64,000 nt of DNA, taken from contig JANRKS010000005.1 in assembly GCA_033763315.1 (NCBI GenBank), positions 321,646 to 385,645 of the forward strand, written 5' to 3'. Shown piece after piece: positions 5,929 to 47,754 of this stretch (positions within the stretch are counted from its first letter, which is position 1; every line of letters starts with the position of its first letter). Under the pieces are notes generated by a model that worked only from the letters and a program-made list of their open reading frames with translations, ran no database searches and had not been told where the DNA came from. A program made the position numbers and the translations under genes. The stretch comes from Deltaproteobacteria bacterium. GTDB lineage: Bacteria; Myxococcota_A; Polyangia; Fen-1088.

Positions 5929-7659
5929 GTGGCTGGTCAACAAGAAGAGGAGCTCTTCTTGCGCGCACAGCTGTTCACTGCGTTAATCGTCACAACCTTG
6001 GTCTCAGGGTGCTCCGGCGCGGCGGGGTCCCCATCTGAGGGCGACGAGGCCGACGGCGGATCCGGTGGCGGCGCTTCCGGCGGCACCACAGCGCCGCCGC
6101 CCGAGGTGGTGCCAAAGCCGCGTGATTCTGCGTGTGCCGGCGCCGCGCCCAAGCCCGGCATCGCGGGCTTGCGCAAACTAACGCCATTTGAATACGACAA
6201 CACTGTGGAAGAGTTGCTGCGCGCCACCACAAAACCTGGCGCCTCGTTCCCCGCATCGCAACTTGTGCTTGGTTTCGACAACAACGCCGACGCTGTGAAC
6301 GCCTCCACCTTGGCCGTTGAGCAGTATCAATCGGCCGCCGAAACGCTGGCACTGGCCGCCGTCAAAGATCTGCCGAAGTTGATGGGGTGCAACGGTGGTT
6401 CCGCGGCCGCCGAAGACACGTGCGCCAAAAGTTTTATCAAGTCGTTCGGCCTGCACGCGTTTCGCCGCCCGCTGACCACGGCAGAGCTCGATCGCTTCAC
6501 GCGCTTCTATATGGACAGCAAAGCGCCGAACGGATTCACAGACTCGGTGCGCATGCTCGTCGAAGCGTTCTTGCAGTCTCCGCATTTTCTTTACCGCGTT
6601 GAAGGTGCAGCGAAAACGGGCTCTGTGGCCGCGCCTTATGCATTGGCTTCGCGGCTTTCGTATCTCATTTGGAGCAGCATGCCTGATGAAACGTTGTTTG
6701 CTGCGGCAGCCTCTGGCCGCTTGAAGGGCGCCGGCGACGTGGCGTTGCAAGCGCAGCGAATGTTGGCCGACGATCGCGCCAAGCGCGGGGTGAATAACTT
6801 CTTTGGCCAGTGGCTTGAGTTGTCGCGCGTGCAGCGTCTTGAAAAGGATGCGGAAGCCAACCCCACGTGGACGCCGGCTATCGCCGGATTGTTGCGCCAA
6901 GAGACAGAAGCGTATGTGCAGGATCAGGTGTTGGGCGGCAAAGGCAACTTGAAATCGCTACTCACCGACCCCCATAGTTTCATCAACGCAGATCTGGCGA
7001 AATTCTATGGCCTCCAGGCGCCTGCAGGGAGCGGCTTCGGGCGTGTAAATTTGAACCCCAAGCAGCGTGCCGGATTGCTCACGCAAGGCGCCTTGTTGGC
7101 AGCGGCAGCCAAGCCTCGGCAAAGCTCGCCCGTGGCTCGGGGCTACTTCGTGCGCGACCGGTTGTTGTGTTCGCCGCCACCGCCTCCACCAGCCAACGTG
7201 AATGCCAAATTGCCCGAGCCCGACGGAACGGCCACCACGCGGCAACGCCTTGAAAGCCACCGCACGGATCCAAGCTGCAGAGGGTGCCACGAGCTTCTTG
7301 ATCCCGTGGGTCTTGGTTTTGAACACTACGACGCCGTGGGCCTATGGCGCGATCAGGACGAAGGCAAGCCGGTGGATGCGACGGGCAAGATCAGCAGCGC
7401 CGGTGACGCCGACGGCGCGTTCGATGGCGCCATCGAACTTGCAACGAAACTGGCAGGCAGCCAAACGGTGCAGGCCTGCTTTGCCAAACAATTCTTTCGC
7501 TTCGCTTTCGCACGCGGCGAAACCGACGACGACGCATGCACGTTGGATGCCCTGAGTGTGGCCCTCGGTGGCAATGACGCCACATTCGCGCGCTTCATCG
7601 CTACGCTGACACAAACAGATCCATTCATGTACGAAACACAGGCAGGAGTTGGCCAATGA
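5929..7659 (+). CDS. DUF1587/1595/1592/1588/1585 multidomain lipoprotein with CxxCH
   Basis: LRKLT..EYDNTV, AFRRPL, LQSPHFLYR, ASRLSY..WSSMPD, SSPVARG, CRGCH; lipobox VSGC; start uncertain. Confidence 0.88.
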   Translation: MAGQQEEELFLRAQLFTALIVTTLVSGCSGAAGSPSEGDEADGGSGGGASGGTTAPPPEVVPKPRDSACAGAAPKPGIAGLRKLTPFEYDNTVEELLRATTKPGASFPASQLVLGFDNNADAVNASTLAVEQYQSAAETLALAAVKDLPKLMGCNGGSAAAEDTCAKSFIKSFGLHAFRRPLTTAELDRFTRFYMDSKAPNGFTDSVRMLVEAFLQSPHFLYRVEGAAKTGSVAAPYALASRLSYLIWSSMPDETLFAAAASGRLKGAGDVALQAQRMLADDRAKRGVNNFFGQWLELSRVQRLEKDAEANPTWTPAIAGLLRQETEAYVQDQVLGGKGNLKSLLTDPHSFINADLAKFYGLQAPAGSGFGRVNLNPKQRAGLLTQGALLAAAAKPRQSSPVARGYFVRDRLLCSPPPPPPANVNAKLPEPDGTATTRQRLESHRTDPSCRGCHELLDPVGLGFEHYDAVGLWRDQDEGKPVDATGKISSAGDADGAFDGAIELATKLAGSQTVQACFAKQFFRFAFARGETDDDACTLDALSVALGGNDATFARFIATLTQTDPFMYETQAGVGQ

Positions 7660-20511: not shown

Positions 20512-20567
20512 AAGAGAACCTGCCCTTGCGATTCGCTGTGAGCAATACAACGGGCATAGGTTCTCTT
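20512..20567. terminator. Long imperfect hairpin at the 3' end of the toxin gene
   Basis: AAGAGAACCT(GCCC)...(GGGCAT)AGGTTCTCTT with a 10-bp perfect outer stem; function unproven. Confidence 0.4.
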
Positions 20568-21225
20568 AACGACCCATGGACTGATCTCGTCGCCAAAGCG
20601 AGACACCCTTTTCGAGTTCTTTCTTCACGATTGACCATGATCGCTCATACCCCTCGGGAGACGGATCGCGTTCTGCATCCATGAAATATGTAAGCGCCAA
20701 GGCGACCTGGCTCGGCGCTAGAGGCAAGTTCTTTGCGGCGTGGTCAATGAATCGGCCAAGTGACCACCCCGGTGACTTGGATATCTCAAGGACATCTATC
20801 AGGTCTCGCTTCGTTCCTCTGTCATGAACGGCAGCAGCCTTCATCACAGCGAGCATTTCAAGCTTTGCAACCGGAATCGCAACGGCCCCTATCTTGATCG
20901 GCGCCACCTTCGGGGGCACCTGCCGATAGGCGATGAAGCTGGTTTCGAAATTGCCGTAGTAGGCCCGCACCGTATGGGCGCTGTTTTGGGCAATACTTGT
21001 TGGCTTCTCACCCAGGGCACTTAGCTCCTTCTTCAACGCTTCTGCGTCAAATGCCTGCGCGGTGAACCAATCCAAATCGCGGGAAATGCGGTGCTTGAGC
21101 AGCAGCCCCATGGCCGTGCCGCCCGCAAGAAAGAAACCCTTCTTCTTCACAAGGTCCGCTTGCAAGCCAATGATGCGGATCTTCTCCGCATCGAGGATCT
21201 TCTTCTTCGTCGTCAACCCGCCCAC
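20566..21225 (-). CDS. Nucleotidyltransferase, AbiEii/AbiGii toxin family (type IV TA toxin)
   Basis: FLAGGTA..L...HRISRDLDWF, MKAAA..DRG.KRD..D, ALTYF.DAE. Confidence 0.88.
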   Translation of the reverse strand: MGGLTTKKKILDAEKIRIIGLQADLVKKKGFFLAGGTAMGLLLKHRISRDLDWFTAQAFDAEALKKELSALGEKPTSIAQNSAHTVRAYYGNFETSFIAYRQVPPKVAPIKIGAVAIPVAKLEMLAVMKAAAVHDRGTKRDLIDVLEISKSPGWSLGRFIDHAAKNLPLAPSQVALALTYFMDAERDPSPEGYERSWSIVKKELEKGVSLWRRDQSMGR

Positions 21226-27870: not shown

Positions 27871-28509
27871 CTATTCGGTCTTGAAGCCCACCTTGTTGTG
27901 AGTGCCGTCGCAATAGGGTTTGTTCGCTGACTGGCCACAGCGGCAGAGGGCGGTTTTCTCAACCCGGTTCAGGGTTCGGCCGGTGCCCGAACAGATTTCA
28001 AGATTGCCGCTCACAAGCAGTGGCCCATTCTTGAGCGGCGTGATGGTGAGCGGTCCGCCCCGCGTTGCCAAGGGTTGCGAGGGTGCGGTGGCAGGCTCCC
28101 CCGTTGCGGTGAAATTCGCAGCGCTGTGGCTGCCATCGCAAAATGGCTTGTTGTTCGAGGCACCGCATCGGCACAACGTGGCACGCAGCGCAGAACCGTG
28201 TCCGTCGATCGAGATCTCGGCGTGAATGGCGACGGGGCCATTCTCTCGCACGCGCGCAACGTTCACCAAGGGCGCTGATTCGCCCGGGGTTCCATCCAAG
28301 GGTTCAAACGTGATGGCGCCCGACGGGCAGTTGCGCGCGATTTCGGCGAGCTCTGGGACGCTGGCGTTATCGGGATGTATCCACGCGCCTTGCACGTTAG
28401 GCACGAAGACATCCGGTCGATCCAAAACGCAGTGTCTTGAGTGGATGCACTTCTTTCCTTCAAAACGAAGGATCGCTTTTTGCCCCGTCACCTCTTCGAT
28501 TTTGCTCAT
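27871..28509 (-). CDS. CDGSH iron-sulfur protein (Fer4_19-like domain plus two zf-CDGSH)
   Basis: CIHSRHC...CPSGA; LCRCGASNNKPFCDGSH; LCRCGQSANKPYCDGTH. Confidence 0.93.
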   Translation of the reverse strand: MSKIEEVTGQKAILRFEGKKCIHSRHCVLDRPDVFVPNVQGAWIHPDNASVPELAEIARNCPSGAITFEPLDGTPGESAPLVNVARVRENGPVAIHAEISIDGHGSALRATLCRCGASNNKPFCDGSHSAANFTATGEPATAPSQPLATRGGPLTITPLKNGPLLVSGNLEICSGTGRTLNRVEKTALCRCGQSANKPYCDGTHNKVGFKTE

Positions 28510-28607: not shown

Positions 28608-28751
28608 ATGAACCAAGAGGCTTCCCTCCGGCAGATTCGTGCCAGCGAACTCAAGGCGATGCGTGACCAAGGTTTGCCGCACGAGCTCTTTGATGTGCGT
28701 ACCACCGCAGAGCGTGCGCTATTTGCAGAAGTGCCTGCGGGTGGGAGTTAA
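28608..28751 (+). pseudogene. Truncated rhodanese-domain remnant
   Basis: LRQIRASELKAMRDQGLPHELFDVRTTAERA matches a rhodanese N-terminus, then stops after 47 aa. Confidence 0.5.
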
Positions 28752-28777: not shown

Positions 28778-29953
28778 CTACCGAAGAAACAGGATGTCCA
28801 ACGCGTCAGTTCGGCGGTCAATCGGGCCGGCGGAGATCTCGGTGCGATTCGCGAGCAACACGGTCGCGATGCCGCGGGAAGGGTAGATTCGCACGTTGCC
28901 GTGAAAGCCCAACCCGCCGCCCTGCTTTCCGAAGTAGGACTGGCCGGCCAACTTGCCGATCACCCAGCCGAGCGCGCCGGCAGGTTGTCCATTCGTCGTG
29001 TGCTGTCGTGCGAACAACTTCGCTTTTGTCTCCGCACGCAGCAGCACCGAATCGCTGCGGAGCAGGTCTGCAAGCACACGTCCCGGCGCTTGTGCCGTAA
29101 CGAAAAGGCCGCCGTACGCACGGCCGTAAGGCAGGACGCGCGAGCTGCTGCTCCACGGGCCGCGTGCGTCGCCCCAGTAGCGCGCTGGCGTCATGAGCCG
29201 AAGCATCCAAGTGAGGGGGCTGAACCGACGAGCGTATCCCACTGCCAACGCGCCGGGCCCGTCTATCGCGAAACGCGCCGACGCAGCCGTGAGGCCCAAG
29301 GGTCGGAACACGTGGTCGTCGACATAGGCCGCGTAGTCCTGGCCGGAGGTGCTTTCGATCACCTTCTCCAACAGCCAGTAGCCGAGGTTCGAATAGCCGT
29401 ACTTCTGCCCAGGTGCGTGGCGAAGGCGCGGGTGCTTCCCGAGGATCCGCTGGATCTCTCGGTCGCGATCGAACGACTGGCCTTGGACCACGAACCAATC
29501 GAGCGGCATTGGATCGGGCACGCCCGAGGTGTGAGCCAACAGCTGACGAATCGTGACGTCGTCGCCATACGGGTGGCGCTTGAAATACTTCTGAAGGGGC
29601 GCGTCCAGCTTGATTCTTCCCTGTTCCACCAGCTGCATAACGGCGATGGCGGTAATCACCTTGGTGGTCGAATACGCCATTAGGATCGTGGCCTCATTCA
29701 TCGGCGTTGCGGAGCCGACGTCGCTCACGCCGGCCGTTGCGGAAAACAGCACGCCCTTTGGACCGACGACCACGTACTGGATCCCAGGCACCTCTCCTGA
29801 TGAGACGAGCTGTTCCAAAGCCAGCCGCGCCCGCGCGGCCGGGGCTCCCTGGGTTACATCGGTGGCTGTACAACTTGGCATGGTCATCGATACCATCAGG
29901 ACAGCCAAGGCGTGCGCGAGGAACGAGCCGATCTGCTTGGCGCCGGGGTTCAT
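28778..29953 (-). CDS. Serine hydrolase, beta-lactamase class C/AmpC-like family (lipoprotein-like)
   Basis: SxxK (STTK), LLAHTSG, YSN; ATGA overlap with the upstream oxidase gene. Confidence 0.88.
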   Translation of the reverse strand: MNPGAKQIGSFLAHALAVLMVSMTMPSCTATDVTQGAPAARARLALEQLVSSGEVPGIQYVVVGPKGVLFSATAGVSDVGSATPMNEATILMAYSTTKVITAIAVMQLVEQGRIKLDAPLQKYFKRHPYGDDVTIRQLLAHTSGVPDPMPLDWFVVQGQSFDRDREIQRILGKHPRLRHAPGQKYGYSNLGYWLLEKVIESTSGQDYAAYVDDHVFRPLGLTAASARFAIDGPGALAVGYARRFSPLTWMLRLMTPARYWGDARGPWSSSSRVLPYGRAYGGLFVTAQAPGRVLADLLRSDSVLLRAETKAKLFARQHTTNGQPAGALGWVIGKLAGQSYFGKQGGGLGFHGNVRIYPSRGIATVLLANRTEISAGPIDRRTDALDILFLR

Positions 29954-30648
29954 CGCAACGGCTCCGACGTGACCGCGACGTGGTCATTGGGCTCAGGGGA
30001 GGTATGGAACCGTGCGCACGTCATGCGGCGCAGGCTCTCATCGCGGTGCTCGGCCTCGTCGCGGGCGATCTGGCGAAACAACGCCGCAAGCGTCGCGTGC
30101 GCACCGTAGTCTTCGGCGAAGATGCTGATCCAGGGCTGCGATTCAAGCTCGGGGTGGCCAGCGACAAACGCCAAGTATGAAACTTCGGCGTGATCCTCGA
30201 AGTCGGCGTTCAGTGCGTAACTCCAGCGCGGGTTGAGCACGTATAGAAGCCAGCTGACGTGGTAGTAGACAAGCGCCAGCAGCTGCGGGATCGCGCGGCC
30301 GAGCAACCACGATGTTCGTTCGCCACTTTTCGAAAGCAGCTCGTCCACGATCAGGAGGTGCCACTGCTCGTTGTCTTGGGCAGCGCGTGCCTCGCGCACG
30401 TACTCGAAGATCCGGCGGGCCGAGCGGAAGCGATGGTGGGCGTGAGTGAGCGCGACGTACGCGACGCCTTCCCAGGCCTGGTACGGCACGCGTGCGACCA
30501 ACTCCAAGACCTGAAGCTTCTTTAGAGTCAGCTGGCGCCCGTACAGGGCGTCCATCGTGAAGAACAAGGCACGCGCCAGCCAGCCGTGGCGTCGCGGAGC
30601 TCGTGTGATAGTTTGAGGGGCTTTGTTGCGAGTGGGGTTGGTGGTCAT
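29950..30648 (-). CDS. Alternative oxidase/PTOX-like di-iron carboxylate protein
   Basis: LELVARVPY, DNEQWHL, FEDHAEVSY and IARDEAEH give the four AOX/PTOX iron-ligand motifs; start at 30648 fits the sigma54 promoter. Confidence 0.8.
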   Translation of the reverse strand: MTTNPTRNKAPQTITRAPRRHGWLARALFFTMDALYGRQLTLKKLQVLELVARVPYQAWEGVAYVALTHAHHRFRSARRIFEYVREARAAQDNEQWHLLIVDELLSKSGERTSWLLGRAIPQLLALVYYHVSWLLYVLNPRWSYALNADFEDHAEVSYLAFVAGHPELESQPWISIFAEDYGAHATLAALFRQIARDEAEHRDESLRRMTCARFHTSPEPNDHVAVTSEPLR

Positions 30649-30661
30649 GCCATTCGCTTGC

Positions 30662-30677
30662 AGCAACCGACGTGCCA
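30662..30677 (-). promoter_or_regulatory. Sigma54 (-24/-12) promoter for the oxidase-hydrolase operon
   Basis: Minus strand TGGCACGTCGGTTGCT, a perfect match to TGGCACG-N4-TTGCW. Confidence 0.85.
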
Positions 30678-30693
30678 TCGCGACGGTGGCTGG

Positions 30694-31737
30694 TCAAACG
30701 ACGGTGGCGCGCCGGTTCGCAATCTTCCGCCACAGCGTGCTGCGGCTGATGCCCAGGACGCGCGCGGCGCGCTCTTGGTTGTTGTCGCAGCTGTCGAGAA
30801 CGCGGGCAATGTGCGCACGCTCCACCGCGTCCAGAGATTTGAGTTCGCCATCCGCTGCGGATGGCCGCGGTGGGGACACTGCGATGTCTTCTGGCAGATG
30901 CTCCACTGCGACAGCGCGATCTTGTGCGAAGGCAACGGCATGCTCGATGGCGTTGCCGAGCTCACGTACGTTGCCCGGCCACGTGTACGCTTCGAGCATC
31001 GCTCGCGCCCGCGCGGACAGCTTCAGGTCCGCTACGCCCAGCTTGCTGGCAAACATCCGCGCCAGCGGCACGATGTCGTCGCGTCGTTCGCGCAGCGGCG
31101 GGACATTCAGCGTGAACACCCGCAGCCGGTAGAACAGATCCTCGCGAAACCGACCGGCCGCGACCAGAGCCTTCAGATCACGGTGGGTGGCGCTGAGCAC
31201 TCGTACATCCACGGGACGTGCCCGCGCTTCCCCAACCCGCCGGATCTCGCCTTCTTGCAGGACGCGCAGCAGCTTGGCTTGCAGCAGAAGTGGCATCTCG
31301 CCGATCTCGTCGAGCAGCAACGTCCCGCCGTCGGCCTCACCGAAGAGACCGGGCGTGCTGGCAGCGGCACCCGTAAAAGCGCCCTTGGCGTGGCCAAACA
31401 ATTCCGACTCAAGCAGCTCTGAAGGCAGCGCCGCCACGTTCACGGCGAGGAACGGTCGCGAATGGCGTGGGCTGTTCGAGTGAATCAGGCGCGCGATGAC
31501 CTCCTTACCGGTGCCCGTCTCCCCGTGGATGACAGCGCTGGATTTGGTCTGCGCAACGACGGCGCACTTGGCGAGCACATTCCGAAGGGCTTCGCTGCTG
31601 GCAACGACACGCGAGCAACGGCGTAACCCGTCCACCTGCGGCGCACGCTTACAAACGCCACACAACCGAATCCGTTCCATGGGCTCGCTGCAGGGGCCAA
31701 CCACCGGGAGGTGACGAGTTTCATTTTGAGACGTCAT
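30694..31737 (-). CDS. Sigma54-dependent enhancer-binding protein (AAA+, Fis HTH) with a short Cys-rich N-terminus
   Basis: GETGTGKE, ESELFGH, GAFTGA, LLLDEIGE, FREDLFYRL, WPGNVREL, LGISRSTLWRK; the longer N-terminus in the ORF track overlaps opposite-strand genes. Confidence 0.92.
   Translation of the reverse strand: MTSQNETRHLPVVGPCSEPMERIRLCGVCKRAPQVDGLRRCSRVVASSEALRNVLAKCAVVAQTKSSAVIHGETGTGKEVIARLIHSNSPRHSRPFLAVNVAALPSELLESELFGHAKGAFTGAAASTPGLFGEADGGTLLLDEIGEMPLLLQAKLLRVLQEGEIRRVGEARARPVDVRVLSATHRDLKALVAAGRFREDLFYRLRVFTLNVPPLRERRDDIVPLARMFASKLGVADLKLSARARAMLEAYTWPGNVRELGNAIEHAVAFAQDRAVAVEHLPEDIAVSPPRPSAADGELKSLDAVERAHIARVLDSCDNNQERAARVLGISRSTLWRKIANRRATVV
31718..31732. promoter_or_regulatory. 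Candidate upstream activator sequence GTTTCA-TTT-TGAGAC
   Basis: Near-palindrome about 100 bp upstream of the predicted start site of the + strand sigma54 promoter; overlaps the first codons of the activator gene. Confidence 0.5.
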
Positions 31738-31796
31738 GTGTTCGATTCTGGAGAATACCGGCGTGAATGCGCCCAAGCAACCAAGGCTTTCGCCGC

Positions 31797-31812
31797 TGGC
31801 CCGAGCGTTGCA
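31797..31812 (+). promoter_or_regulatory. Sigma54 (-24/-12) promoter for the membrane pair/globin/hemerythrin operon
   Basis: TGGCCCGAGCGTTGCA, one mismatch to consensus, 28 nt before ATG 31841 (GGAG RBS). Confidence 0.75.
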
Positions 31813-31840
31813 GTCCCGGAGCTCCGAAAGGAGATCGTCT

Positions 31841-32332
31841 ATGAACCAAAAGCGACCTGCACTCTTTCCTCCGCCCGAGGACGCATCGATCCGGCAACGC
31901 CTTGCCAGGTACCTGCTACGCGCACACGGGGCTGGGCTTGTGTTGCTGGCGTCGGGCAATGCCGTCGTGTCGTTCCGAGCGACGCAAATGCCCATCGCGG
32001 GCCCGTTCCGCTTCCTGTTCGAGAATCCGGCCGCCGAGATCGGACTGCTGCAGGCGTACCTACTCATGGCCGCGATTGGCGCGGTCCTGTTCTGCGGGTC
32101 TTTCGCTGTGCGCATCGGCCGCTTCGACGCTCTCGGCATCGCCGCGCATCTGGTGCCGTTGTTGGCGCTCCTGGCCTTCCGCCCCCTTGTGATCTCGTTC
32201 ATGGGACCCGGCACCCTGCTGATGAGCGCCACCATCCATCTCACGTTCATCGCGATCGAGGTCGTGGCCCTGCTGCTGCAAGGCCGCATGGCGTGGTCGG
32301 GCAGAATCCAAGCCGGGGTGGTGGCGTCATGA
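31841..32332 (+). CDS. Hypothetical 4-TM membrane protein (paralog 1)
   Basis: Hydrophobic helices with LRAHG, AAHL and TIHL. Confidence 0.7.
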   Translation: MNQKRPALFPPPEDASIRQRLARYLLRAHGAGLVLLASGNAVVSFRATQMPIAGPFRFLFENPAAEIGLLQAYLLMAAIGAVLFCGSFAVRIGRFDALGIAAHLVPLLALLAFRPLVISFMGPGTLLMSATIHLTFIAIEVVALLLQGRMAWSGRIQAGVVAS

Positions 32333-32769
32333 TCTGGGGACGTTCCATCCTTCGCGCACACGGCAGCATTCTCGCGGTTCTCGGCGCGATGCTGTTCGGT
32401 CGGACACTGGTAGGTCGGTTTCATGGTGCCGGCATGTTCTCCTTCTTGGCGAGCAACCACGTGGCCGCGATCGGATTCGCTGAGGCCTACGGTCTGATTG
32501 CCCTCACCGGCGTGGCCCTCGTTCTGGGAGCAGGGTTACCCCGGCCCCGCGCTCTGCACATCGTGGCCGCCGGGATTCACGCTTTTCTTACAGCGATCAA
32601 CTTATCCAACTGGCGGTTCTACGCCGTGCTGGGCATGCAAGGCGCGGGCTACGGTTCGACCGCGATGCACGTGGTCCTTGCGACCGTCGAGGTTGCATGC
32701 GCAGTGATGTCCAGTGATGCGCGCGGGGCTACCTTACGAGGAAAGGCGGTCTGCGATGCGCGACCTTGA
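32329..32769 (+). CDS. Hypothetical 4-TM membrane protein (paralog 2)
   Basis: ATGA overlap with paralog 1; LRAHG, GIHA and AMHV. Confidence 0.7.
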   Translation: MIWGRSILRAHGSILAVLGAMLFGRTLVGRFHGAGMFSFLASNHVAAIGFAEAYGLIALTGVALVLGAGLPRPRALHIVAAGIHAFLTAINLSNWRFYAVLGMQGAGYGSTAMHVVLATVEVACAVMSSDARGATLRGKAVCDARP

Positions 32770-33151
32770 ATCCATCGCCGACTGCCGCGCGTTGGTCGAA
32801 CGCTTCTACGACGCCGCGCGACGCGATCCGCTGCTCGGTCCCGTCTTTGCCGCGAGGTTGTCGCGCGTGTGGCCCGATCACCTCGAAACCATGACCCGGT
32901 TCTGGGGCGCGGTGTTGTTCGCCCAACCCCTGTACCACGGAAGCCCGATCGAACGTCACCAAGGTCTACCGATCGAAGGCGCGCATTTTCGTCGCTGGCT
33001 CGATCTGTGGACGGAAGCCGTTGACGGTCTGTTCAGCGGTGCACGTGCCGAACACGCCAAGCGCGGCGCCGCGCGTATGGCCGAGCGGATGGCCAAGTCC
33101 GTTTCAGGCTTCGCTTCAAACACCACCACCATCACACCCGCTCGTCAATGA
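32756..33151 (+). CDS. Group III truncated hemoglobin (trHbP)
   Basis: LVERFY..ARRDPLLGPVF, WPDHL..MTRFW, YHGSP..RH, HFRRWL.LW. Confidence 0.9.
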   Translation: MRDLESIADCRALVERFYDAARRDPLLGPVFAARLSRVWPDHLETMTRFWGAVLFAQPLYHGSPIERHQGLPIEGAHFRRWLDLWTEAVDGLFSGARAEHAKRGAARMAERMAKSVSGFASNTTTITPARQ

Positions 33152-33972
33152 AAGGAATGAACATGATCAATACGCAAAAAGAAGGTCGAGTGTGGGCCCT
33201 CCACGCGCCCCTTGAGGTTGTCACGTTCGACATCTACCGTGACATCCATAAAGGGATCCGGGCCGAGCTGTTCGGCGTCACCACCGCCGCTGGCAACGTG
33301 GACCCGCACGACGGCACCGCGATCGCGTCACTGCTCCAGCGCTTGTCAGCACTCGTCGGGCTTCTGGACGGGCACGCCGCTCACGAGGATCGATACCTGG
33401 CGCCGCTCATCCAGCGCCAATCGGGTGCGCTGGCTGACGCCATCACGCAGGACCACCGCACCCTGGAAGGGCAGCTTCATCAGCTGGCGTCGACGCTGCA
33501 GAATGTCCCTTCGTCCAGGTCAGAACAGCGCTTGGCCGTTCATCGCTTCTACCTGTGCATGGCCTCGTTCACTTCGGACTATCTTGAGCACCAGGCGTTG
33601 GAGGAGCTCGAAGTGATGCCGGCCCTTGCTGCTGGGTACACAGTGCAGGATCTCTTGCATGTGAACGCCGAGATCCTCGCGGAGATCCCTCCTGAGACGA
33701 TGGCCGCATCGCTGTCTCTCCTCCTGCCGGCAATGAACGTTGATGATCGCGTCGAGATGTTGTCCGGGATCAGAGCGACCGCGCCACCTCAGGAGTTTGC
33801 GGCCGTACTCGGCCTCGCGGCCACCGTCCTGCCCCCAGCGGACTACGCGGCTCTGGCTGCGCTCGGCGACAACATTGTTGCCGCCACGAGGCGAACCATC
33901 GACAACGACAGCGTCACTCGCGCATTTGTTCCTTGTCTGCCAGCCAGGGAAGAAGGCTCTCGGAGAGGGTGA
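33148..33972 (+). CDS. Hemerythrin-domain (HHE) protein; C-terminus probably altered by a junction
   Basis: DIYRDIHKGIR, HAAHED, DH..LE, YLEHQALEE; the tail after YAALAAL looks unrelated. Confidence 0.82.
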   Translation: MKGMNMINTQKEGRVWALHAPLEVVTFDIYRDIHKGIRAELFGVTTAAGNVDPHDGTAIASLLQRLSALVGLLDGHAAHEDRYLAPLIQRQSGALADAITQDHRTLEGQLHQLASTLQNVPSSRSEQRLAVHRFYLCMASFTSDYLEHQALEELEVMPALAAGYTVQDLLHVNAEILAEIPPETMAASLSLLLPAMNVDDRVEMLSGIRATAPPQEFAAVLGLAATVLPPADYAALAALGDNIVAATRRTIDNDSVTRAFVPCLPAREEGSRRG

Positions 33973-45519: not shown

Positions 45520-47754
45520 TTACTGCGTGGAGCGTGGCCAAGCGGCCTTGCCGAACAGCAAGATGGTGGAAACAGGAAGGACGACCCCCACGGAGGTAAC
45601 AGTGGTTGCGTTGCTTGTGTCTGCCGAGACAGCCTGGTTCGCTAGATAGCCACCAAGAATCGATCCCCCAATGGCGCCCGCAACGGTCCAGAAGGCCAAA
45701 GCCGTGCCTTGGCTGTTGCGGACGTTACCGGCGAGCTCAGCTATCACGCCAATGCCGGCCCCGATGAATCCACCCACCATCAAGCCAGTGCTTCCGCCAC
45801 TCACAGTGGCGAAGGCCCTGCGCGTGTCTGGCGCGTCACTCAGCGCTGTGCCGGCGATCATCCCTCCGCCATAAAGCGCGCCGACCGTGATCAAGGCGAT
45901 CGCGGTTCGTCGTTTGGCGCTCCGGTGCCAACGTCGCTCCACAGGGCCATCGTTGCACGTGCGTCGCAGTTTCTCGGACGCGCGGGCTTGATCGATCCTC
46001 GGGCACACGTGTTGCGCGAACGAGTCAAAATCCCTCATCTGTTTTTCGTGCCCCCGCAACACAACCGGTTCCATGCGGGAGGCTACCTGGTCGTCGCGAA
46101 GGGCGGCAACGCGGAATGCCCCGTCGAGCTCCCAGCCCCAGCTTTCTTTGGTGAAAGATTCGCTTACTAGCGTTGTGAACGCAGCGTCAGCCGCAGGCCA
46201 CCGCGCCAGCAGAATGAGCAATTCCGTCCGCGCTTCGAATTGTGATTCAGTTTGTGGTTTCCTACGAAACGACATTACCGCCTGTGCAGAGGCACCCCGT
46301 ACTTGCAATGCGGTCACCAGCACCAAGAACGGCGCTACGTTTGTGGGCGACGAACGCATGGTTAATCCGCGCTCCAACATGCCCCAAAGTTCAGGCGATC
46401 GGCCAGCGTTCACCGAATCGCGGCACGACGGAGAAACTATGTCGCCTAGAGCTGCGAAATAGCCTTCAGGAAACGCGCCCTGTTGCGCGCTGGACGCTAA
46501 AGGAGCCAGCGTGGCTCGGACGAAACTTGTCAGTCCCGCGCAAGGGTCCCCGGGTGGATCCGCTTTCGACCACACCAAGGGCACATTGCTTCCAAGTGGA
46601 CTCGAAAAGGCAAACATATCGCCGTTACGAAGCGCGATCCCCAGGCTGCTTGGCAATGGCGCTTTAGGAAGTGGCTCAGCACGTGGGTCACCCATCCGCC
46701 AGGACCACTGGCGGGTGTAAGTTGAAACGTGCCACGTGTCATTCCCGCGAGGAACAAGAATTCCGTCTGAAGGAATGGGCACCTTGAAGCTTGATTGAGG
46801 TGCAGCGGCAGGGTCTGCGCTGTTAAGCCGCGCAAGCCACGTGTCAGATTCCTTGCCGAGCCACCGCAAGAACAGGTGTCCGTTGCCATTAATCAAGACA
46901 ACGGAGTGCGGCTTTAAATCCTCAGGCAAACGCTGTTTGACCCAAAGCCTTGCAGGCGGAAGCCACCACCACACTTGCGGTGGTTCATCGCCACGAGAGC
47001 CCTCCGCACGGCCCAGCACGGCCACCGCACCTTGCTCGTCGACTTTGGCGTCGACAACACAAAGATCAACGGGTGGTGCGGGCATCGTTTTCCATGTGTC
47101 GTCAGCGTGGCTTGTGACAAAGAAACCGAAGTCGCAGCTTTGCAATGATTGGCTTCGGTGCAGGATGCCGAAATCGCCGTTGGACAGCGGCAGAGAAATC
47201 GCGCTGCGGGATTTGGTAGATGGCAAAGGCGCAAAGGGTCGCCAGGCTGTTTGTCCTGGGGCGAGGATCTCGGGTGTTGGCGCTTGATCCAGCAGACGAC
47301 CTTGGCCCCCCGCAAGGATCAAGCTTCCGTCCCGTAGGATACCCATCGCCGCATACCGCCGAGTCTGTGACGGGGATGGCATGGTCTCTATCGTTCCTGA
47401 TTGTGGGTTCCACCGGTCGCAAAGGCTCCCCTCCGACGCGCCTTCGCACATAACAAGGCTGCCGTCGGGCAACTCGACATATGAAGGAAGGTCGTTCGAT
47501 TGCCTGACCCCGGCGATGCGCCATCCGTCGGCAATGACCACATTCGCTGTGCACAAAAGGAGCACCGCTGTTGTCGTACCTGCCGTGAGCAATCTCAGTT
47601 GTGCACGTGACTCGGCACGGAAGCGCCCACGCCACTTGAACACGCGATCTTCGATTTCGTCGAGTTGATGTTTACCGGCGGGCCCCTCCAATGACCAAGC
47701 TGGAGACAATCCACGTTCGCCGGTCTCCCCATCGCCTGGTGTACGCGTGTGCAT
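45520..47754 (-). CDS. Hypothetical protein: Kelch-like beta-propeller N-terminal region, C-terminal membrane helices
   Basis: LPDGSLV, LRDGSLILAGG, LRNGD repeats; Gly-rich TM tail; start uncertain. Confidence 0.6.
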   Translation of the reverse strand: MHTRTPGDGETGERGLSPAWSLEGPAGKHQLDEIEDRVFKWRGRFRAESRAQLRLLTAGTTTAVLLLCTANVVIADGWRIAGVRQSNDLPSYVELPDGSLVMCEGASEGSLCDRWNPQSGTIETMPSPSQTRRYAAMGILRDGSLILAGGQGRLLDQAPTPEILAPGQTAWRPFAPLPSTKSRSAISLPLSNGDFGILHRSQSLQSCDFGFFVTSHADDTWKTMPAPPVDLCVVDAKVDEQGAVAVLGRAEGSRGDEPPQVWWWLPPARLWVKQRLPEDLKPHSVVLINGNGHLFLRWLGKESDTWLARLNSADPAAAPQSSFKVPIPSDGILVPRGNDTWHVSTYTRQWSWRMGDPRAEPLPKAPLPSSLGIALRNGDMFAFSSPLGSNVPLVWSKADPPGDPCAGLTSFVRATLAPLASSAQQGAFPEGYFAALGDIVSPSCRDSVNAGRSPELWGMLERGLTMRSSPTNVAPFLVLVTALQVRGASAQAVMSFRRKPQTESQFEARTELLILLARWPAADAAFTTLVSESFTKESWGWELDGAFRVAALRDDQVASRMEPVVLRGHEKQMRDFDSFAQHVCPRIDQARASEKLRRTCNDGPVERRWHRSAKRRTAIALITVGALYGGGMIAGTALSDAPDTRRAFATVSGGSTGLMVGGFIGAGIGVIAELAGNVRNSQGTALAFWTVAGAIGGSILGGYLANQAVSADTSNATTVTSVGVVLPVSTILLFGKAAWPRSTQ

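What the first reader, a model, noticed from the sequence alone, without database searches (positions are those of the whole stretch)
28778..33972. Self-contained sigma54 module for O2/NO handling: PTOX-like oxidase, group III globin, hemerythrin and new membrane proteins
Seen: a central enhancer-binding protein flanked by two outward-facing -24/-12 promoters (perfect TGGCACGTCGGTTGCT on the minus strand at 30662-30677; TGGCCCGAGCGTTGCA on the plus strand at 31797-31812), and a candidate UAS palindrome at 31718-31732. The left operon is a di-iron oxidase plus a serine hydrolase. The right operon is two membrane paralogs, trHbP and a hemerythrin-domain protein. Genes within each operon overlap. 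A CDGSH Fe-S gene lies nearby. Established: trHbs, hemerythrins and CDGSH proteins bind or react with O2/NO, and AOX/PTOX enzymes are heme-free quinol oxidases insensitive to cyanide. Inference: a portable system that senses O2/NO, buffers or detoxifies the gas and bypasses inhibited heme-copper oxidases. I do not recognise this combination as described. It is the best candidate for a new system in this window.
Basis: partly seen in the sequence, partly recalled or inferred. Interest (0 to 1): 0.85.

Follow-up and report, generated by a model that had tools for sequence, protein, structure and literature searches.

The report
Sigma-54 switch for globin and oxidase
A small regulator with an unusual four-cysteine tip appears to switch on a haem-free oxidase-like gene and a truncated haemoglobin operon; this three-gene unit recurs in related soil bacteria and has not been described, though what it senses is still a guess.

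Summary
Only the proposed UAS palindrome is weak.

Comparison with 80 genomes carrying the oxidase-like gene narrows the claim. The conserved unit is three genes: a group III truncated globin, read divergently from an enhancer-binding protein (EBP), followed by an AOX/PTOX-like di-iron protein. It occurs only in three Myxococcota genomes, which form one well-supported clade with the window.

In all four loci GGCRC-N5-TTGCT sits 12-13 nt before the oxidase ATG, implying a nearly leaderless sigma-54 transcript. The EBP has no GAF, PAS or receiver domain. Instead it has about 44 residues with four conserved cysteines.

The two membrane paralogs, hemerythrin and serine hydrolase were absent from all 80 loci. 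The membrane paralog recurs only in metagenome relatives. The CDGSH gene shows no link. Nothing indicates mobility.

An NO/O2 or respiratory-stress role is inferred only by analogy with NsrR-aox, NssR-ctb and NorR.

Verdict: a real, undescribed variant of a known kind of stress regulon, of moderate interest.

The parts
28778..29953 (-). Beta-lactamase/PBP-family serine hydrolase, 391 aa, with a hydrophobic N-terminus. Second gene of the left operon in this lineage only.
   Evidence: PF00144, 4.7e-60. It falls below every NCBIfam cut-off; the best is AmpH at 87 bits against 266. SxxK (STTK) and YSN motifs read by eye. ATGA overlap with the AOX-like stop codon. No homolog in any of the 80 loci.
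29950..30648 (-). AOX/PTOX-like membrane di-iron carboxylate protein, 232 aa.
   Evidence: PF01786, 7.3e-12, 45.8 bits against a cut-off of 22.7. E, ExxH, E, ExxH and a Tyr are invariant or nearly so in 34 homologs. 31% identity over 150 aa, E 4e-14, to a Nostoc protein annotated 'alternative oxidase'. Only marginal match to solved AOX, E 0.04-0.06. Homologs start at the 30648 ATG.
30662..30677 (-). P_left, a sigma-54 -24/-12 promoter (TGGCACGTCGGTTGCT). It ends 13 nt before the AOX-like ATG. The predicted +1 near 30651 leaves a leader of about 3 nt.
   Evidence: GGCRC-N5-TTGCT lies 12-13 nt before the ATG in L001, L004 and L023, while the flanking bases differ. A relaxed motif is present in 3 of 3 EBP-linked loci and 4 of 76 others.
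30694..31737 (-). Enhancer-binding protein, 347 aa: a roughly 44-aa N-terminal Cys4 module (C16, C26, C29, C41), an AAA+ sigma-54 interaction domain with GAFTGA, and an HTH_8 domain.
   Evidence: domains from residue 45. NorR model matched only over profile positions 190-503, 326 bits against a cut-off of 476; cysteines and residues 9-19 conserved in L004 and L023; no Pfam family for residues 1-50; only 4 clusters share this N-terminus.
31738..31750 (-). Conserved block just before the EBP ATG (GAACAC plus a -10-like hexamer CAGAAT, separated from the ATG by 7 nt), with no Shine-Dalgarno sequence. This is a probable sigma-70-type promoter giving a leaderless EBP mRNA.
   Evidence: GAACACATGA is invariant in the window, L004 and L023. 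The hexamers are CAGAAT, CATATT and CATAGT at the same distance. The function is inferred.
31718..31732 (.).
   Evidence: Sequence. No perfect 6-bp dyad there in the window. L004 and L023 have GTTTCAT-N10-ATGAAAC at the homologous place. Only the GTTTCAT arm is retained in the window.
31797..31812 (+). P_right, a sigma-54 -24/-12 promoter (TGGCCCGAGCGTTGCA). It lies 28 nt before the memA ATG, with an AAAGGAG Shine-Dalgarno sequence in between.
   Evidence: Aligned -24/-12 elements precede the globin gene in L023 (TGGCTCACGGGTTGCG) and L004 (CGGTCCGAGGCTTGCT).
31841..32332 (+). memA, a 163-aa four-helix membrane protein of a family absent from Pfam. His29, His103, His133 and Glu140 are conserved.
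   Evidence: No Pfam or NCBIfam family. 10 close homologs. Model pLDDT 83 with four long helices. No solved fold at E <= 0.001. 128 family representatives. 0 of 60 scanned have a Pfam family. Conserved columns.
32329..32769 (+). memB, a 146-aa paralog of memA.
   Evidence: 38% identity over 68 aa, E 5e-7. The same His/His/His/Glu columns are invariant in its own subfamily alignment. ATGA overlap with memA.
32756..33151 (+). Group III truncated haemoglobin (trHbP), 131 aa.
   Evidence: PF01152, 26.6 bits against a cut-off of 21. Best PDB match is 2ig3, E 1.5e-10. Y18, H42, H68 and W81 are invariant in the three orthologs. The 32756 start fits the orthologs and follows GAGGAAAGG.
33148..33972 (+). 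Hemerythrin-domain protein, 274 aa: an Hr domain at residues 28-160 and a C-terminal part of about 110 aa with no family.
   Evidence: PF01814, 1.1e-13. PDB matches: FBXL5 hemerythrin domain 8e-4 and YtfE 0.22. NCBIfam YtfE at 25 bits against 254. No Pfam family for the C-terminal part. No homolog in any of the 80 loci.
27871..28509 (-). Neighbouring CDGSH/Fer4_19 iron-sulfur protein. Membership in the unit is not shown.
   Evidence: PF09360, 2e-30, and PF06902, 1.2e-12. A 268-nt gap separates it from the hydrolase gene, with no GG-N10-GC promoter in the gap. No homolog in any of the 80 loci.

Best explanation
This is a sigma-54 regulon whose conserved core is three genes. A bacterial enhancer-binding protein (EBP) is followed on the same strand by an AOX/PTOX-like di-iron gene, and a group III truncated haemoglobin is read divergently from the EBP.

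**Shown**
- The gene families.
- The two -24/-12 promoters and their conservation in related Myxococcota.
- The fixed 12-13 nt gap between the -12 element and the oxidase ATG, which implies a leader of about 2-4 nt.
- An EBP with an intact AAA+/GAFTGA core and HTH_8 but no GAF, PAS or receiver domain. In their place is a roughly 44-residue module with four conserved cysteines (C-x9-C-x2-C-x11-C).

**Inferred**
- The EBP is made from a sigma-70-type promoter as a leaderless mRNA.
- The Cys4 module holds a metal or iron-sulfur centre that gates the ATPase.
- A redox-active signal, most plausibly NO or another inhibitor or over-reduction of haem-based respiration, changes that centre.
- The EBP then opens both promoters.
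- The di-iron protein oxidises quinol without haem or copper, while the globin deals with NO or O2.

**Lineage-specific additions**
In the window's lineage the right operon gained two paralogous His-rich four-helix membrane proteins and a hemerythrin-domain protein. The left operon gained a periplasmic serine hydrolase.
For: **Families:**

**Synteny**
- A close EBP (69-75% identity) lies directly upstream of the oxidase-like gene in L001, L004 and L023.
- The globin (54-55% identity) is divergent from the EBP in L004 and L023. The L001 contig starts inside the EBP, so that side cannot be seen.

**Promoters**
- GGCRC-N5-TTGCT lies 12-13 nt before the ATG in 4 of 4 loci.
- The relaxed motif occurs at 2.9e-4 per nt.
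- 3 of 3 EBP-linked loci carry the motif, against 4 of 76 others, where about 4.5 of 79 are expected by chance.
- The divergent promoter aligns in all three loci.

**Clade:** the four EBP-linked oxidase genes fall in one 21-row clade with SH-aLRT 98. Its other rows are metagenome proteins of unknown context (quick tree).

**Metagenome relatives:** the window-type EBP, memA and oxidase homologs report identical longest-contig lengths (2908, 3113, 226244 and 13044 nt). This suggests the same contigs but is indirect.

**Cys4 module:** it is conserved, with synonymous DNA changes upstream of the gene-caller's start.

**Di-iron site:** the ligands and a Tyr are invariant.

**Analogy**
- V. fischeri aox is NsrR-controlled, NO-induced and NO-resistant (PMC5156696, passages).
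- C. jejuni NssR activates ctb, a group III globin, under nitrosative stress (PMC4601167, passages).
- OrpR is an EBP that senses through an Fe-S cluster (PMC8359166, passages).
- Myxococcota pexR-ahpC shows the same layout: a divergent sigma-54 target and a possibly leaderless regulator mRNA (PMC12754779, abstract and passages).
Against: - No signal, metal centre, enzymatic activity or RpoN dependence was tested.
- The EBP model failed (pLDDT 48.5), so nothing shows that the four cysteines come together.
- No enhancer site shared by the two promoters was found. The dyad in L004 and L023 is degenerate in the window.
- The oxidase-like protein matches solved AOX only at E 0.04-0.06, so quinol oxidase activity is an extrapolation.
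- 77 of 80 family loci have no adjacent EBP, and the family has no common neighbour (at most 10 of 80). The family's general role is therefore not tied to this regulon.
- A leader of about 3 nt on a sigma-54 transcript is unusual, and the start codon is not verified.
- The L023 EBP carries an apparent frameshift.
- The core was seen complete in only two outside genomes.
Confidence: 0.55

Rival explanations
1. The architecture is the same, but the signal is peroxide, general redox stress or iron status rather than NO/O2 as respiratory poisons. The Cys4 module would lose a metal or form disulfides on oxidation. The regulon would then supply or protect iron proteins.
For: - Every product that can be assigned is an iron protein: di-iron, haem, di-iron.
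- The closest Myxococcota precedent, PexR, senses H2O2 through a Zn/Fe site (PMC12754779, abstract).
- OrpR senses redox potential rather than O2 itself (PMC8359166, passages).
- The hemerythrin's best solved relative is the FBXL5 hemerythrin domain, which I recall as an iron/O2 sensor.
Against: - There is no peroxidase, catalase or iron-uptake gene in the unit.
- Both conserved targets have homologs in NO-responsive regulons elsewhere.
Confidence: 0.2
2. The AOX-like protein is not a respiratory quinol oxidase. It would be a di-iron oxygenase or hydroxylase acting on a lipid, quinone or small metabolite, possibly working with the serine hydrolase. The globin would supply or buffer O2 for it.
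For: - The match to solved AOX is only marginal.
- There is a weak COQ7 hit, 18 bits, below the cut-off. Some sources name homologs 'demethoxyubiquinone hydroxylase'.
- The oxidase-like gene is translationally coupled to a hydrolase in the window.
- The family occurs in many phyla without any fixed respiratory neighbour.
Against: - Pfam AOX is the only family above its cut-off.
- The ligand pattern and the Tyr follow AOX/PTOX (the AOX motifs are recalled).
- It shares 31% identity with a cyanobacterial protein annotated 'alternative oxidase' of the same size.
- The hydrolase is absent from all 80 loci.
Confidence: 0.15
3. One reading: all seven genes, with the CDGSH gene nearby, form one self-contained and portable O2/NO-handling system.
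For: - Genes overlap within both operons.
- EBP, memA and oxidase homologs share contig lengths in metagenome relatives.
- GC content is slightly higher in the block than in its flanks, 0.62-0.64 against 0.58.
Against: - 0 of 80 loci have memA, memB, the hemerythrin, the hydrolase or CDGSH.
- A memA/B profile finds nothing among 2543 ORFs around those loci.
- No integrase, transposase or repeat boundary was seen in the flanking genes.
- Only 2 distant plasmid hits, at 31-33% identity in Nostoc.
- The CDGSH gene has no proper sigma-54 promoter.
Confidence: 0.07
4. The promoter-like motifs are chance matches. The genes are read through from ordinary promoters, and the EBP regulates something else.
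For: - The motif class is not enriched in the window.
- P_left overlaps an alternative upstream ATG at 30678.
- No enhancer site was identified.
Against: - Position and spacing are conserved in four loci while the flanking bases differ.
- The motif is restricted to EBP-linked loci.
Confidence: 0.03

Closest known systems
NorR-norVW (sigma-54 EBP that senses NO)
   Same: A dedicated EBP activates an adjacent NO-related operon from a -24/-12 promoter. NorR is also the best NCBIfam model for this EBP, E 3.4e-97.
   Different: NorR senses through a GAF domain with non-haem iron (PMC4601167, passage). Here the match covers only profile positions 190-503 and scores 326 bits against a cut-off of 476. 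There is no GAF domain, and the targets are different enzymes.
PexR-ahpC/katB of Myxococcota (PMC12754779)
   Same: Same phylum. The regulator and its sigma-54 target are divergent across a short intergenic region. The regulator mRNA is proposed to be leaderless from a sigma-A promoter. Sensing is metal-based (abstract and passages).
   Different: PexR has a Zn/Fe-binding GAF domain and CACCG-n6-CGGTG enhancer sites, and it controls a peroxiredoxin and a catalase. Here there is a 44-residue Cys4 module, no such repeats were found, and the targets are an AOX-like protein and a globin.
NssR-ctb/cgb of Campylobacter jejuni
   Same: A group III truncated globin sits in a small stress regulon that a dedicated activator switches on (PMC4601167, passage). 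Ctb (2ig3) is the closest solved relative of the window's globin.
   Different: NssR is a Crp/Fnr-family factor acting at sigma-70 promoters, and no AOX-like gene is involved.
NsrR-aox of Vibrio fischeri
   Same: A haem-free alternative oxidase is placed under a gas-responsive regulator and works as an NO-resistant oxidase (PMC5156696, passage).
   Different: NsrR is an Fe-S repressor, not an EBP. The Vibrio enzyme is a canonical proteobacterial AOX. The window's protein belongs to a divergent family of about 220 aa that a 2025 survey of AOX/PTOX distribution does not list for these phyla (PMC7618691, passages).
OrpR of Desulfovibrio vulgaris (an EBP that senses through an Fe-S cluster)
   Same: It is a precedent for a cysteine-ligated cluster that gates an EBP negatively (PMC8359166, passages).
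   Different: The OrpR cluster sits in a full PAS domain with three cysteines. Here there are four cysteines in 26 residues and no recognisable domain.
PspF/HrpS-type EBPs without an N-terminal sensor domain (recalled, not from a call)
   Same: A short EBP of AAA+ plus HTH only.
   Different: Those are controlled in trans by partner proteins. Here a conserved Cys4 stretch precedes the AAA+ domain, and no candidate inhibitor gene is conserved in the unit.

Membership tests
sigma-54 (-24/-12) promoter | GG and GC elements exactly 10 nt apart, fitting TGGCAC-N5-TTGCW | tested here: met
   P_left TGGCACGTCGGTTGCT matches fully. P_right TGGCCCGAGCGTTGCA has one mismatch.
sigma-54 (-24/-12) promoter | Correct place and strand upstream of a gene, conserved in orthologous loci | tested here: met
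   P_left is present in 4 of 4 loci, 12-13 nt before the ATG. P_right is aligned in 3 of 3 loci. Outside the EBP-linked loci the motif occurs at background frequency.
sigma-54 (-24/-12) promoter | Transcription depends on RpoN and an EBP | not testable with these tools
   Needs reporters or 5' RACE in rpoN and EBP mutants.
bacterial enhancer-binding protein | AAA+ sigma-54 interaction domain with Walker A/B and the GAFTGA loop, plus a C-terminal HTH | tested here: met
   PF00158 1.1e-67, AAA_lid_14 and HTH_8. GETGTGKE, GAFTGA and DEIGE read by eye and invariant.
NorR (NO-sensing EBP) | N-terminal GAF domain with an iron centre; score above the equivalog cut-off | tested here: not met
   326 bits against a cut-off of 476. 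Only profile positions 190-503 are matched. No GAF domain in Pfam.
AOX/PTOX membrane di-iron oxidases | Pfam PF01786 above the gathering score | tested here: met
   45.8 bits against 22.7, covering residues 35-203. L004 ortholog 37.4 bits.
AOX/PTOX membrane di-iron oxidases | Four-helix ligand set E, ExxH, E, ExxH and a conserved Tyr | tested here: met
   E59, E104/H107, E161 (with H163 and E165), E208/H211 and Y168 are invariant or at least 90% conserved in 34 sequences. The mapping onto AOX motifs is recalled and rests partly on the alignment.
AOX/PTOX membrane di-iron oxidases | Clear sequence relation to characterised members | tested here: inconclusive
   Solved AOX chains match only at E 0.04-0.06 with the family profile, and not at all with the single sequence. 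31% identity, E 4e-14, to a Nostoc protein annotated 'alternative oxidase'.
AOX/PTOX membrane di-iron oxidases | Quinol:O2 oxidoreductase activity insensitive to cyanide and NO | not testable with these tools
   Needs a biochemical assay.
Group III truncated haemoglobin (trHbP) | Closest to group III rather than group I or II globins | tested here: met
   2ig3 (group III) at E 1.5e-10. The next hit is YjbI (1ux8) at 9.2e-5, and the remaining truncated globins score 0.0023-0.15.
Group III truncated haemoglobin (trHbP) | Haem-pocket residues TyrB10, HisE7, HisF8 and TrpG8 | tested here: met
   Y18, H42, H68 and W81 align with the Ctb positions and are invariant in the three orthologs. The residue names are recalled.
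Hemerythrin / RIC (YtfE) | Hemerythrin HHE domain; for RIC, a score above the YtfE cut-off | tested here: inconclusive
   PF01814 is met at 52 bits against 25.3. YtfE is not met at 25 bits against 254. It is a hemerythrin-domain protein but not a demonstrable RIC.
Class C beta-lactamase (resistance enzyme) | Score above an NCBIfam beta-lactamase family cut-off | tested here: not met
   bla_class_C scores 54.9 bits against 415, and all named families fall far below their cut-offs. It belongs to the broad PF00144 serine hydrolase/PBP family only.

The most novel reading that the evidence does not exclude
A new class of enhancer-binding protein whose whole sensor is a roughly 44-residue four-cysteine metal or iron-sulfur module fused directly to the AAA+ domain. 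It would drive nearly leaderless sigma-54 transcripts for a third, uncharacterised branch of the AOX/PTOX oxidases, present in Myxococcota and many non-photosynthetic phyla. Together with a group III globin, and in some lineages a His-rich membrane pair, this would form a haem-independent respiratory bypass induced by gas or redox stress.
Probability: 0.3. Interest if true: 0.75.

Novelty: new variant of a known kind. Interest (0 to 1): 0.55.

Why it matters
- **A compact sensor to test.** The EBP may read a signal through only four cysteines ahead of its ATPase. That would make a compact, transplantable redox or gas switch and a new way of gating AAA+ activators.
- **A handle on an unstudied oxidase-like family.** The AOX/PTOX-like family is large, with 4529 hits, and spans many phyla. 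A recent survey reports AOX only in Pseudomonadota and PTOX only in Cyanobacteria (PMC7618691, passages). A regulated member gives an experimental way in.
- **Context for an unclear globin class.** Group III globins have no clear function, and this unit supplies a new genetic context for one.
- **An unusual transcript.** If confirmed, sigma-54 transcripts with leaders of about 2-4 nt would be an unusual pairing of promoter type and translation mode.

If the unit turns out to be a routine stress regulon, the gain is modest annotation for Myxococcota genomes.

Tried and rejected
- **EBP structure.** The model, built from a 7-row alignment, was unusable (mean pLDDT 48.5). It says nothing about the Cys4 geometry.
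- **memA-memB complex.** Ten attempts met a full queue. The eleventh reported the tool unavailable. Nothing was folded, so pairing of the two paralogs stays untested.
- **memA fold search.** There was no PDB match at E <= 0.001; the best was E 0.54 with TM below 0.5.
- **Atlas leads.** For memA the lead was a 'BphX' cluster at 0.89. Pfam did not confirm it, even at E <= 10. For the hemerythrin C-terminal part the clusters were all hypothetical.
- **Enhancer sites.** No k-mer or dyad is shared between the two upstream regions or across loci. The repeat finder with arms of at least 12 found none, but that setting cannot see short dyads.
- **A third promoter for CDGSH.** TGGCACGAATCTGCC at 28630-28644 (-) has GG-N9-GC spacing, so I rejected it.
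- **A common neighbour for the oxidase family.** None exists. The largest neighbour cluster covers 10 of 80 loci and is a generic ABC ATPase.
- **Terminators and RNA families.** Nothing useful: 12 terminator-like sites against 6.9 expected, none well placed, and 0 Rfam matches.
- **Tree.** Only the quick tree finished. The careful search did not.
- **Unchecked DNA.** Their gene order is inferred from equal contig lengths only.

Full report
**1. What is in the window**

ORF listing and start-codon checks, together with Pfam and NCBIfam, give the following map.

Minus strand:
- EBP at 30694-31737. It has a Sigma54_activat domain from residue 45 (1.1e-67), AAA_lid_14 and HTH_8.
- AOX-like protein at 29950-30648: PF01786, 45.8 bits against a cut-off of 22.7.
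- PF00144 serine hydrolase at 28778-29953.

Plus strand:
- memA at 31841-32332 and memB at 32329-32769. Neither has a Pfam or NCBIfam family. They are paralogs at E 5e-7.
- A globin at 32756-33151.
- A hemerythrin-domain protein at 33148-33972.

The flanking genes have no evident link to the block: a ricin-lectin protein, a CBM96/metallophosphatase, TPR and HEAT proteins, a rhamnosidase and an AbiEii-like ORF. None is a mobility gene.

**2. Is it more than chance?**

Taken alone, the -24/-12 pattern is not. TGGC-N7-TTGC occurs 11 times in the window against 6.6 +/- 2.6 expected. GGCAC-N5-TTGC with one mismatch occurs 30 times against 38.5 expected.

The case rests on position and conservation. 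I used the oxidase-like protein as anchor because it is specific and sits inside the block.
- The family has 4529 hits.
- A scan of one genome per species returned 581 confirmed relatives, of which the best 80 loci were kept.
- The window's own species is not among them; the best identity is 65%.

**3. Synteny (tblastn with the window's eight proteins against all 80 loci)**

- A close EBP (69-75% identity) lies directly upstream of the oxidase gene, on the same strand, in three loci. These are L001 (a Myxococcales MAG), L004 (Labilithrix sp.) and L023 (a Polyangiaceae MAG).
- Four further loci have only distant EBP hits (42-48% identity) lying 1.8-6.7 kb away.
- The globin (54-55% identity) is divergent from the EBP in L004 and L023. 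The L001 contig begins inside the EBP, so that side is unseen.
- memA, memB, the hemerythrin, the hydrolase and the CDGSH protein have no hit in any of the 80 loci.
- A profile of the memA/B family finds nothing among 2543 ORFs around the oxidase genes.
- Outside the trio, the neighbours differ in each locus: an Hsp70-like protein and a glutamate-synthase-like protein in L004, a cupin in L001, and an RCC1-repeat protein in L023.

The conserved unit is therefore globin <-> EBP -> oxidase-like gene.

A quick maximum-likelihood tree puts the window, L001, L004 and L023 in one 21-row clade with SH-aLRT 98. The other rows of that clade are metagenome proteins, and none of the 77 EBP-less loci falls inside it. 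The careful search did not finish.

**4. Promoters in the relatives**

Sequence before the oxidase ATG in each locus:

| Locus | -24/-12 element | Gap to ATG |
|---|---|---|
| Window | TGGCACGTCGGTTGCT | 13 nt |
| L001 | CGGCACGACGGTTGCT | 12 nt |
| L004 | AGGCACGGCCATTGCT | 12 nt |
| L023 | TGGCGCGCGCGTTGCT | 13 nt |

- The surrounding bases are not conserved.
- With the GC element at -13/-12, the transcript would start 2-4 nt before the AUG. No Shine-Dalgarno sequence is present.
- Homolog alignment shows conserved residues from about residue 29 of the long ORF, and most homologs start at the 30648-equivalent ATG. The short leader therefore seems real rather than a mis-called start.
- One 76%-identical homolog was called with an extension reading VARPLL. 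That is what the promoter would encode if translated. This is weak, indirect support.

Across all loci, a relaxed motif (GG-N8-TTGC) lies upstream of the oxidase gene in 7 of the 79 loci that could be examined. Three of the seven are the EBP-linked loci, and about 4.5 of 79 are expected by chance.

On the other side, the three divergent regions align at the -24/-12 element: window TGGCCCGAGCGTTGCA, L023 TGGCTCACGGGTTGCG and L004 CGGTCCGAGGCTTGCT.

**5. The regulator**

- It has GETGTGKE, GAFTGA and DEIGE motifs and a Fis-type HTH, so it should be a working activator.
- NorR is the best NCBIfam model, but only over its AAA+ and HTH parts and below its cut-off.
- Residues 1-44 match no Pfam family, even at E <= 10.
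- That stretch carries C16, C26, C29 and C41, all conserved in L004 and L023. Residues 9-19 upstream of the gene-caller's start are also conserved, with synonymous DNA differences, so the longer N-terminus is translated.
- A search restricted to residues 1-60 found only four protein clusters.
- The EBP ATG sits in an invariant GAACACATGA block. A -10-like hexamer lies upstream, separated from the ATG by 7 nt, and there is no Shine-Dalgarno sequence. This fits a leaderless mRNA, as proposed for pexR in the same phylum (PMC12754779, passages).
- A metal or Fe-S centre in the Cys4 stretch is my inference. OrpR is a precedent (PMC8359166, passages). The structure model that might have shown cysteine clustering failed.

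**6. The enhancer**

- L004 and L023 have GTTTCAT-N10-ATGAAAC across the EBP start. The window keeps only one arm.
- Nothing is shared between the regions upstream of the two promoters.
- A perfect 19-bp palindrome at 30847-30865, about 170-190 nt upstream of P_left, is specific to the window.
- The enhancer is unresolved.

**7. The products**

*Oxidase-like protein.*
- The E, ExxH, E, ExxH set and a Tyr are invariant.
- It shares 31% identity with a 226-aa Nostoc protein annotated 'alternative oxidase'.
- It matches solved mitochondrial AOX only marginally.
- 'PTOX-like' is therefore a fair label, but oxidase activity is extrapolated.

*Globin.* It is group III by its nearest solved relative and by pocket residues conserved in the orthologs.

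*Hemerythrin protein.* It is nearest to the FBXL5 hemerythrin domain and only faintly similar to YtfE. Its C-terminal 110 residues are unassigned.

*memA and memB.*
- They belong to a small family: 128 representatives among 1.84 billion proteins.
- None of 60 members scanned has a Pfam family.
- The memA model has four long helices at pLDDT 83, with no solved counterpart.
- Three histidines and a glutamate in helices 1, 3 and 4 are conserved. This suggests a buried metal or haem site, which is inference.

*Hydrolase.* It has SxxK and YxN motifs, read by eye, but it reaches no beta-lactamase family cut-off.

**8. The window's own lineage**

Window-type EBP, memA and oxidase homologs report the same longest-contig lengths:
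- 2908 nt: P0002, P0127 and P0133.
- 3113 nt: P0124 and P0134.
- 226244 nt: P0126 and P0132.
- 13044 nt: P0027 and P0129.

This suggests that memA travels with the EBP and the oxidase gene in several uncultured relatives. It is indirect, because that DNA could not be fetched.

**9. Function**

Both conserved targets have homologs in NO-responsive regulons elsewhere.
- V. fischeri aox is under NsrR and gives an NO-resistant oxidase (PMC5156696, passages).
- C. jejuni ctb is under NssR (PMC4601167, passages).

This makes an NO or respiratory-inhibition response the most economical reading. A peroxide, redox or iron signal, or a non-respiratory role for the di-iron protein, remains open.

**10. 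Novelty**

Seven searches of the paper library turned up no description of an EBP-controlled AOX-like/globin unit, of a Cys4-stub EBP, or of this oxidase-like family in Myxococcota. For most papers I saw only listings and abstracts. I read passages of PMC5156696, PMC4601167, PMC8359166, PMC12754779 and PMC7618691, and no supplements. Subscription journals are largely outside the library.

The logic of a dedicated sensor-activator switching on gas- or redox-defence genes is well known. I therefore rate this a new variant of a known kind.

Noticed in passing
window 30847-30865: A perfect 19-bp palindrome, GCCATCCG-CTG-CGGATGGC, lies inside the variable linker-coding part of the EBP gene, about 170-190 nt upstream of P_left. 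It is not present in L004 or L023. It could be an enhancer site or chance; my rough estimate of chance is 0.05-0.1.
   Followed up: partly
L001-L080: The AOX/PTOX-like family of about 220 aa occurs in Myxococcota, Elusimicrobiota, Omnitrophota, Planctomycetota, Actinomycetota (including a Mycobacterium), Binatota, Rokubacteria, Nitrospirota and others. The tree mixes these phyla. A 2025 survey reports AOX only in Pseudomonadota and PTOX only in Cyanobacteria (PMC7618691, passages). The family has no fixed neighbour.
   Followed up: partly
L081 1128-2151 (Nostoc plasmid NZ_CP117770.1): The cyanobacterial 'alternative oxidase' that resembles the window's protein sits just downstream of a gene annotated 'hexameric tyrosine-coordinated heme protein'. 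A universal stress protein gene and a nitroreductase gene lie further upstream. This is another pairing of an AOX-like gene with a haem protein.
   Followed up: no
window 28630-28644 (-): TGGCACGAATCTGCC lies between the hydrolase and CDGSH genes and looks like a -24/-12 promoter. Its GG-N9-GC spacing is one base short, so I did not count it.
   Followed up: yes
window 46002-46015 (+): This is the only other exact GGCAC-N5-TTGC in the window (GGCACACGTGTTGC). It lies opposite a 744-aa ORF on the minus strand.
   Followed up: no
L023 about 6170-6250: The EBP ortholog in this Polyangiaceae MAG loses its frame after about residue 185. tblastn gives two segments and the alignment breaks down. The cause could be an assembly error or a pseudogene.
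   Followed up: no
window 20566-21225 (-): An ORF with an AbiEii nucleotidyltransferase toxin domain (type IV toxin-antitoxin), E 6.2e-13. It lies about 7.5 kb from the unit.
   Followed up: no
L004 8788-8830 (-): In Labilithrix the globin ATG lies only about 15 nt after the -12 element. Both sigma-54 transcripts of that locus may therefore be nearly leaderless. A second GG-N8-TTGC lies 21 nt further upstream, so the assignment is ambiguous.
   Followed up: partly
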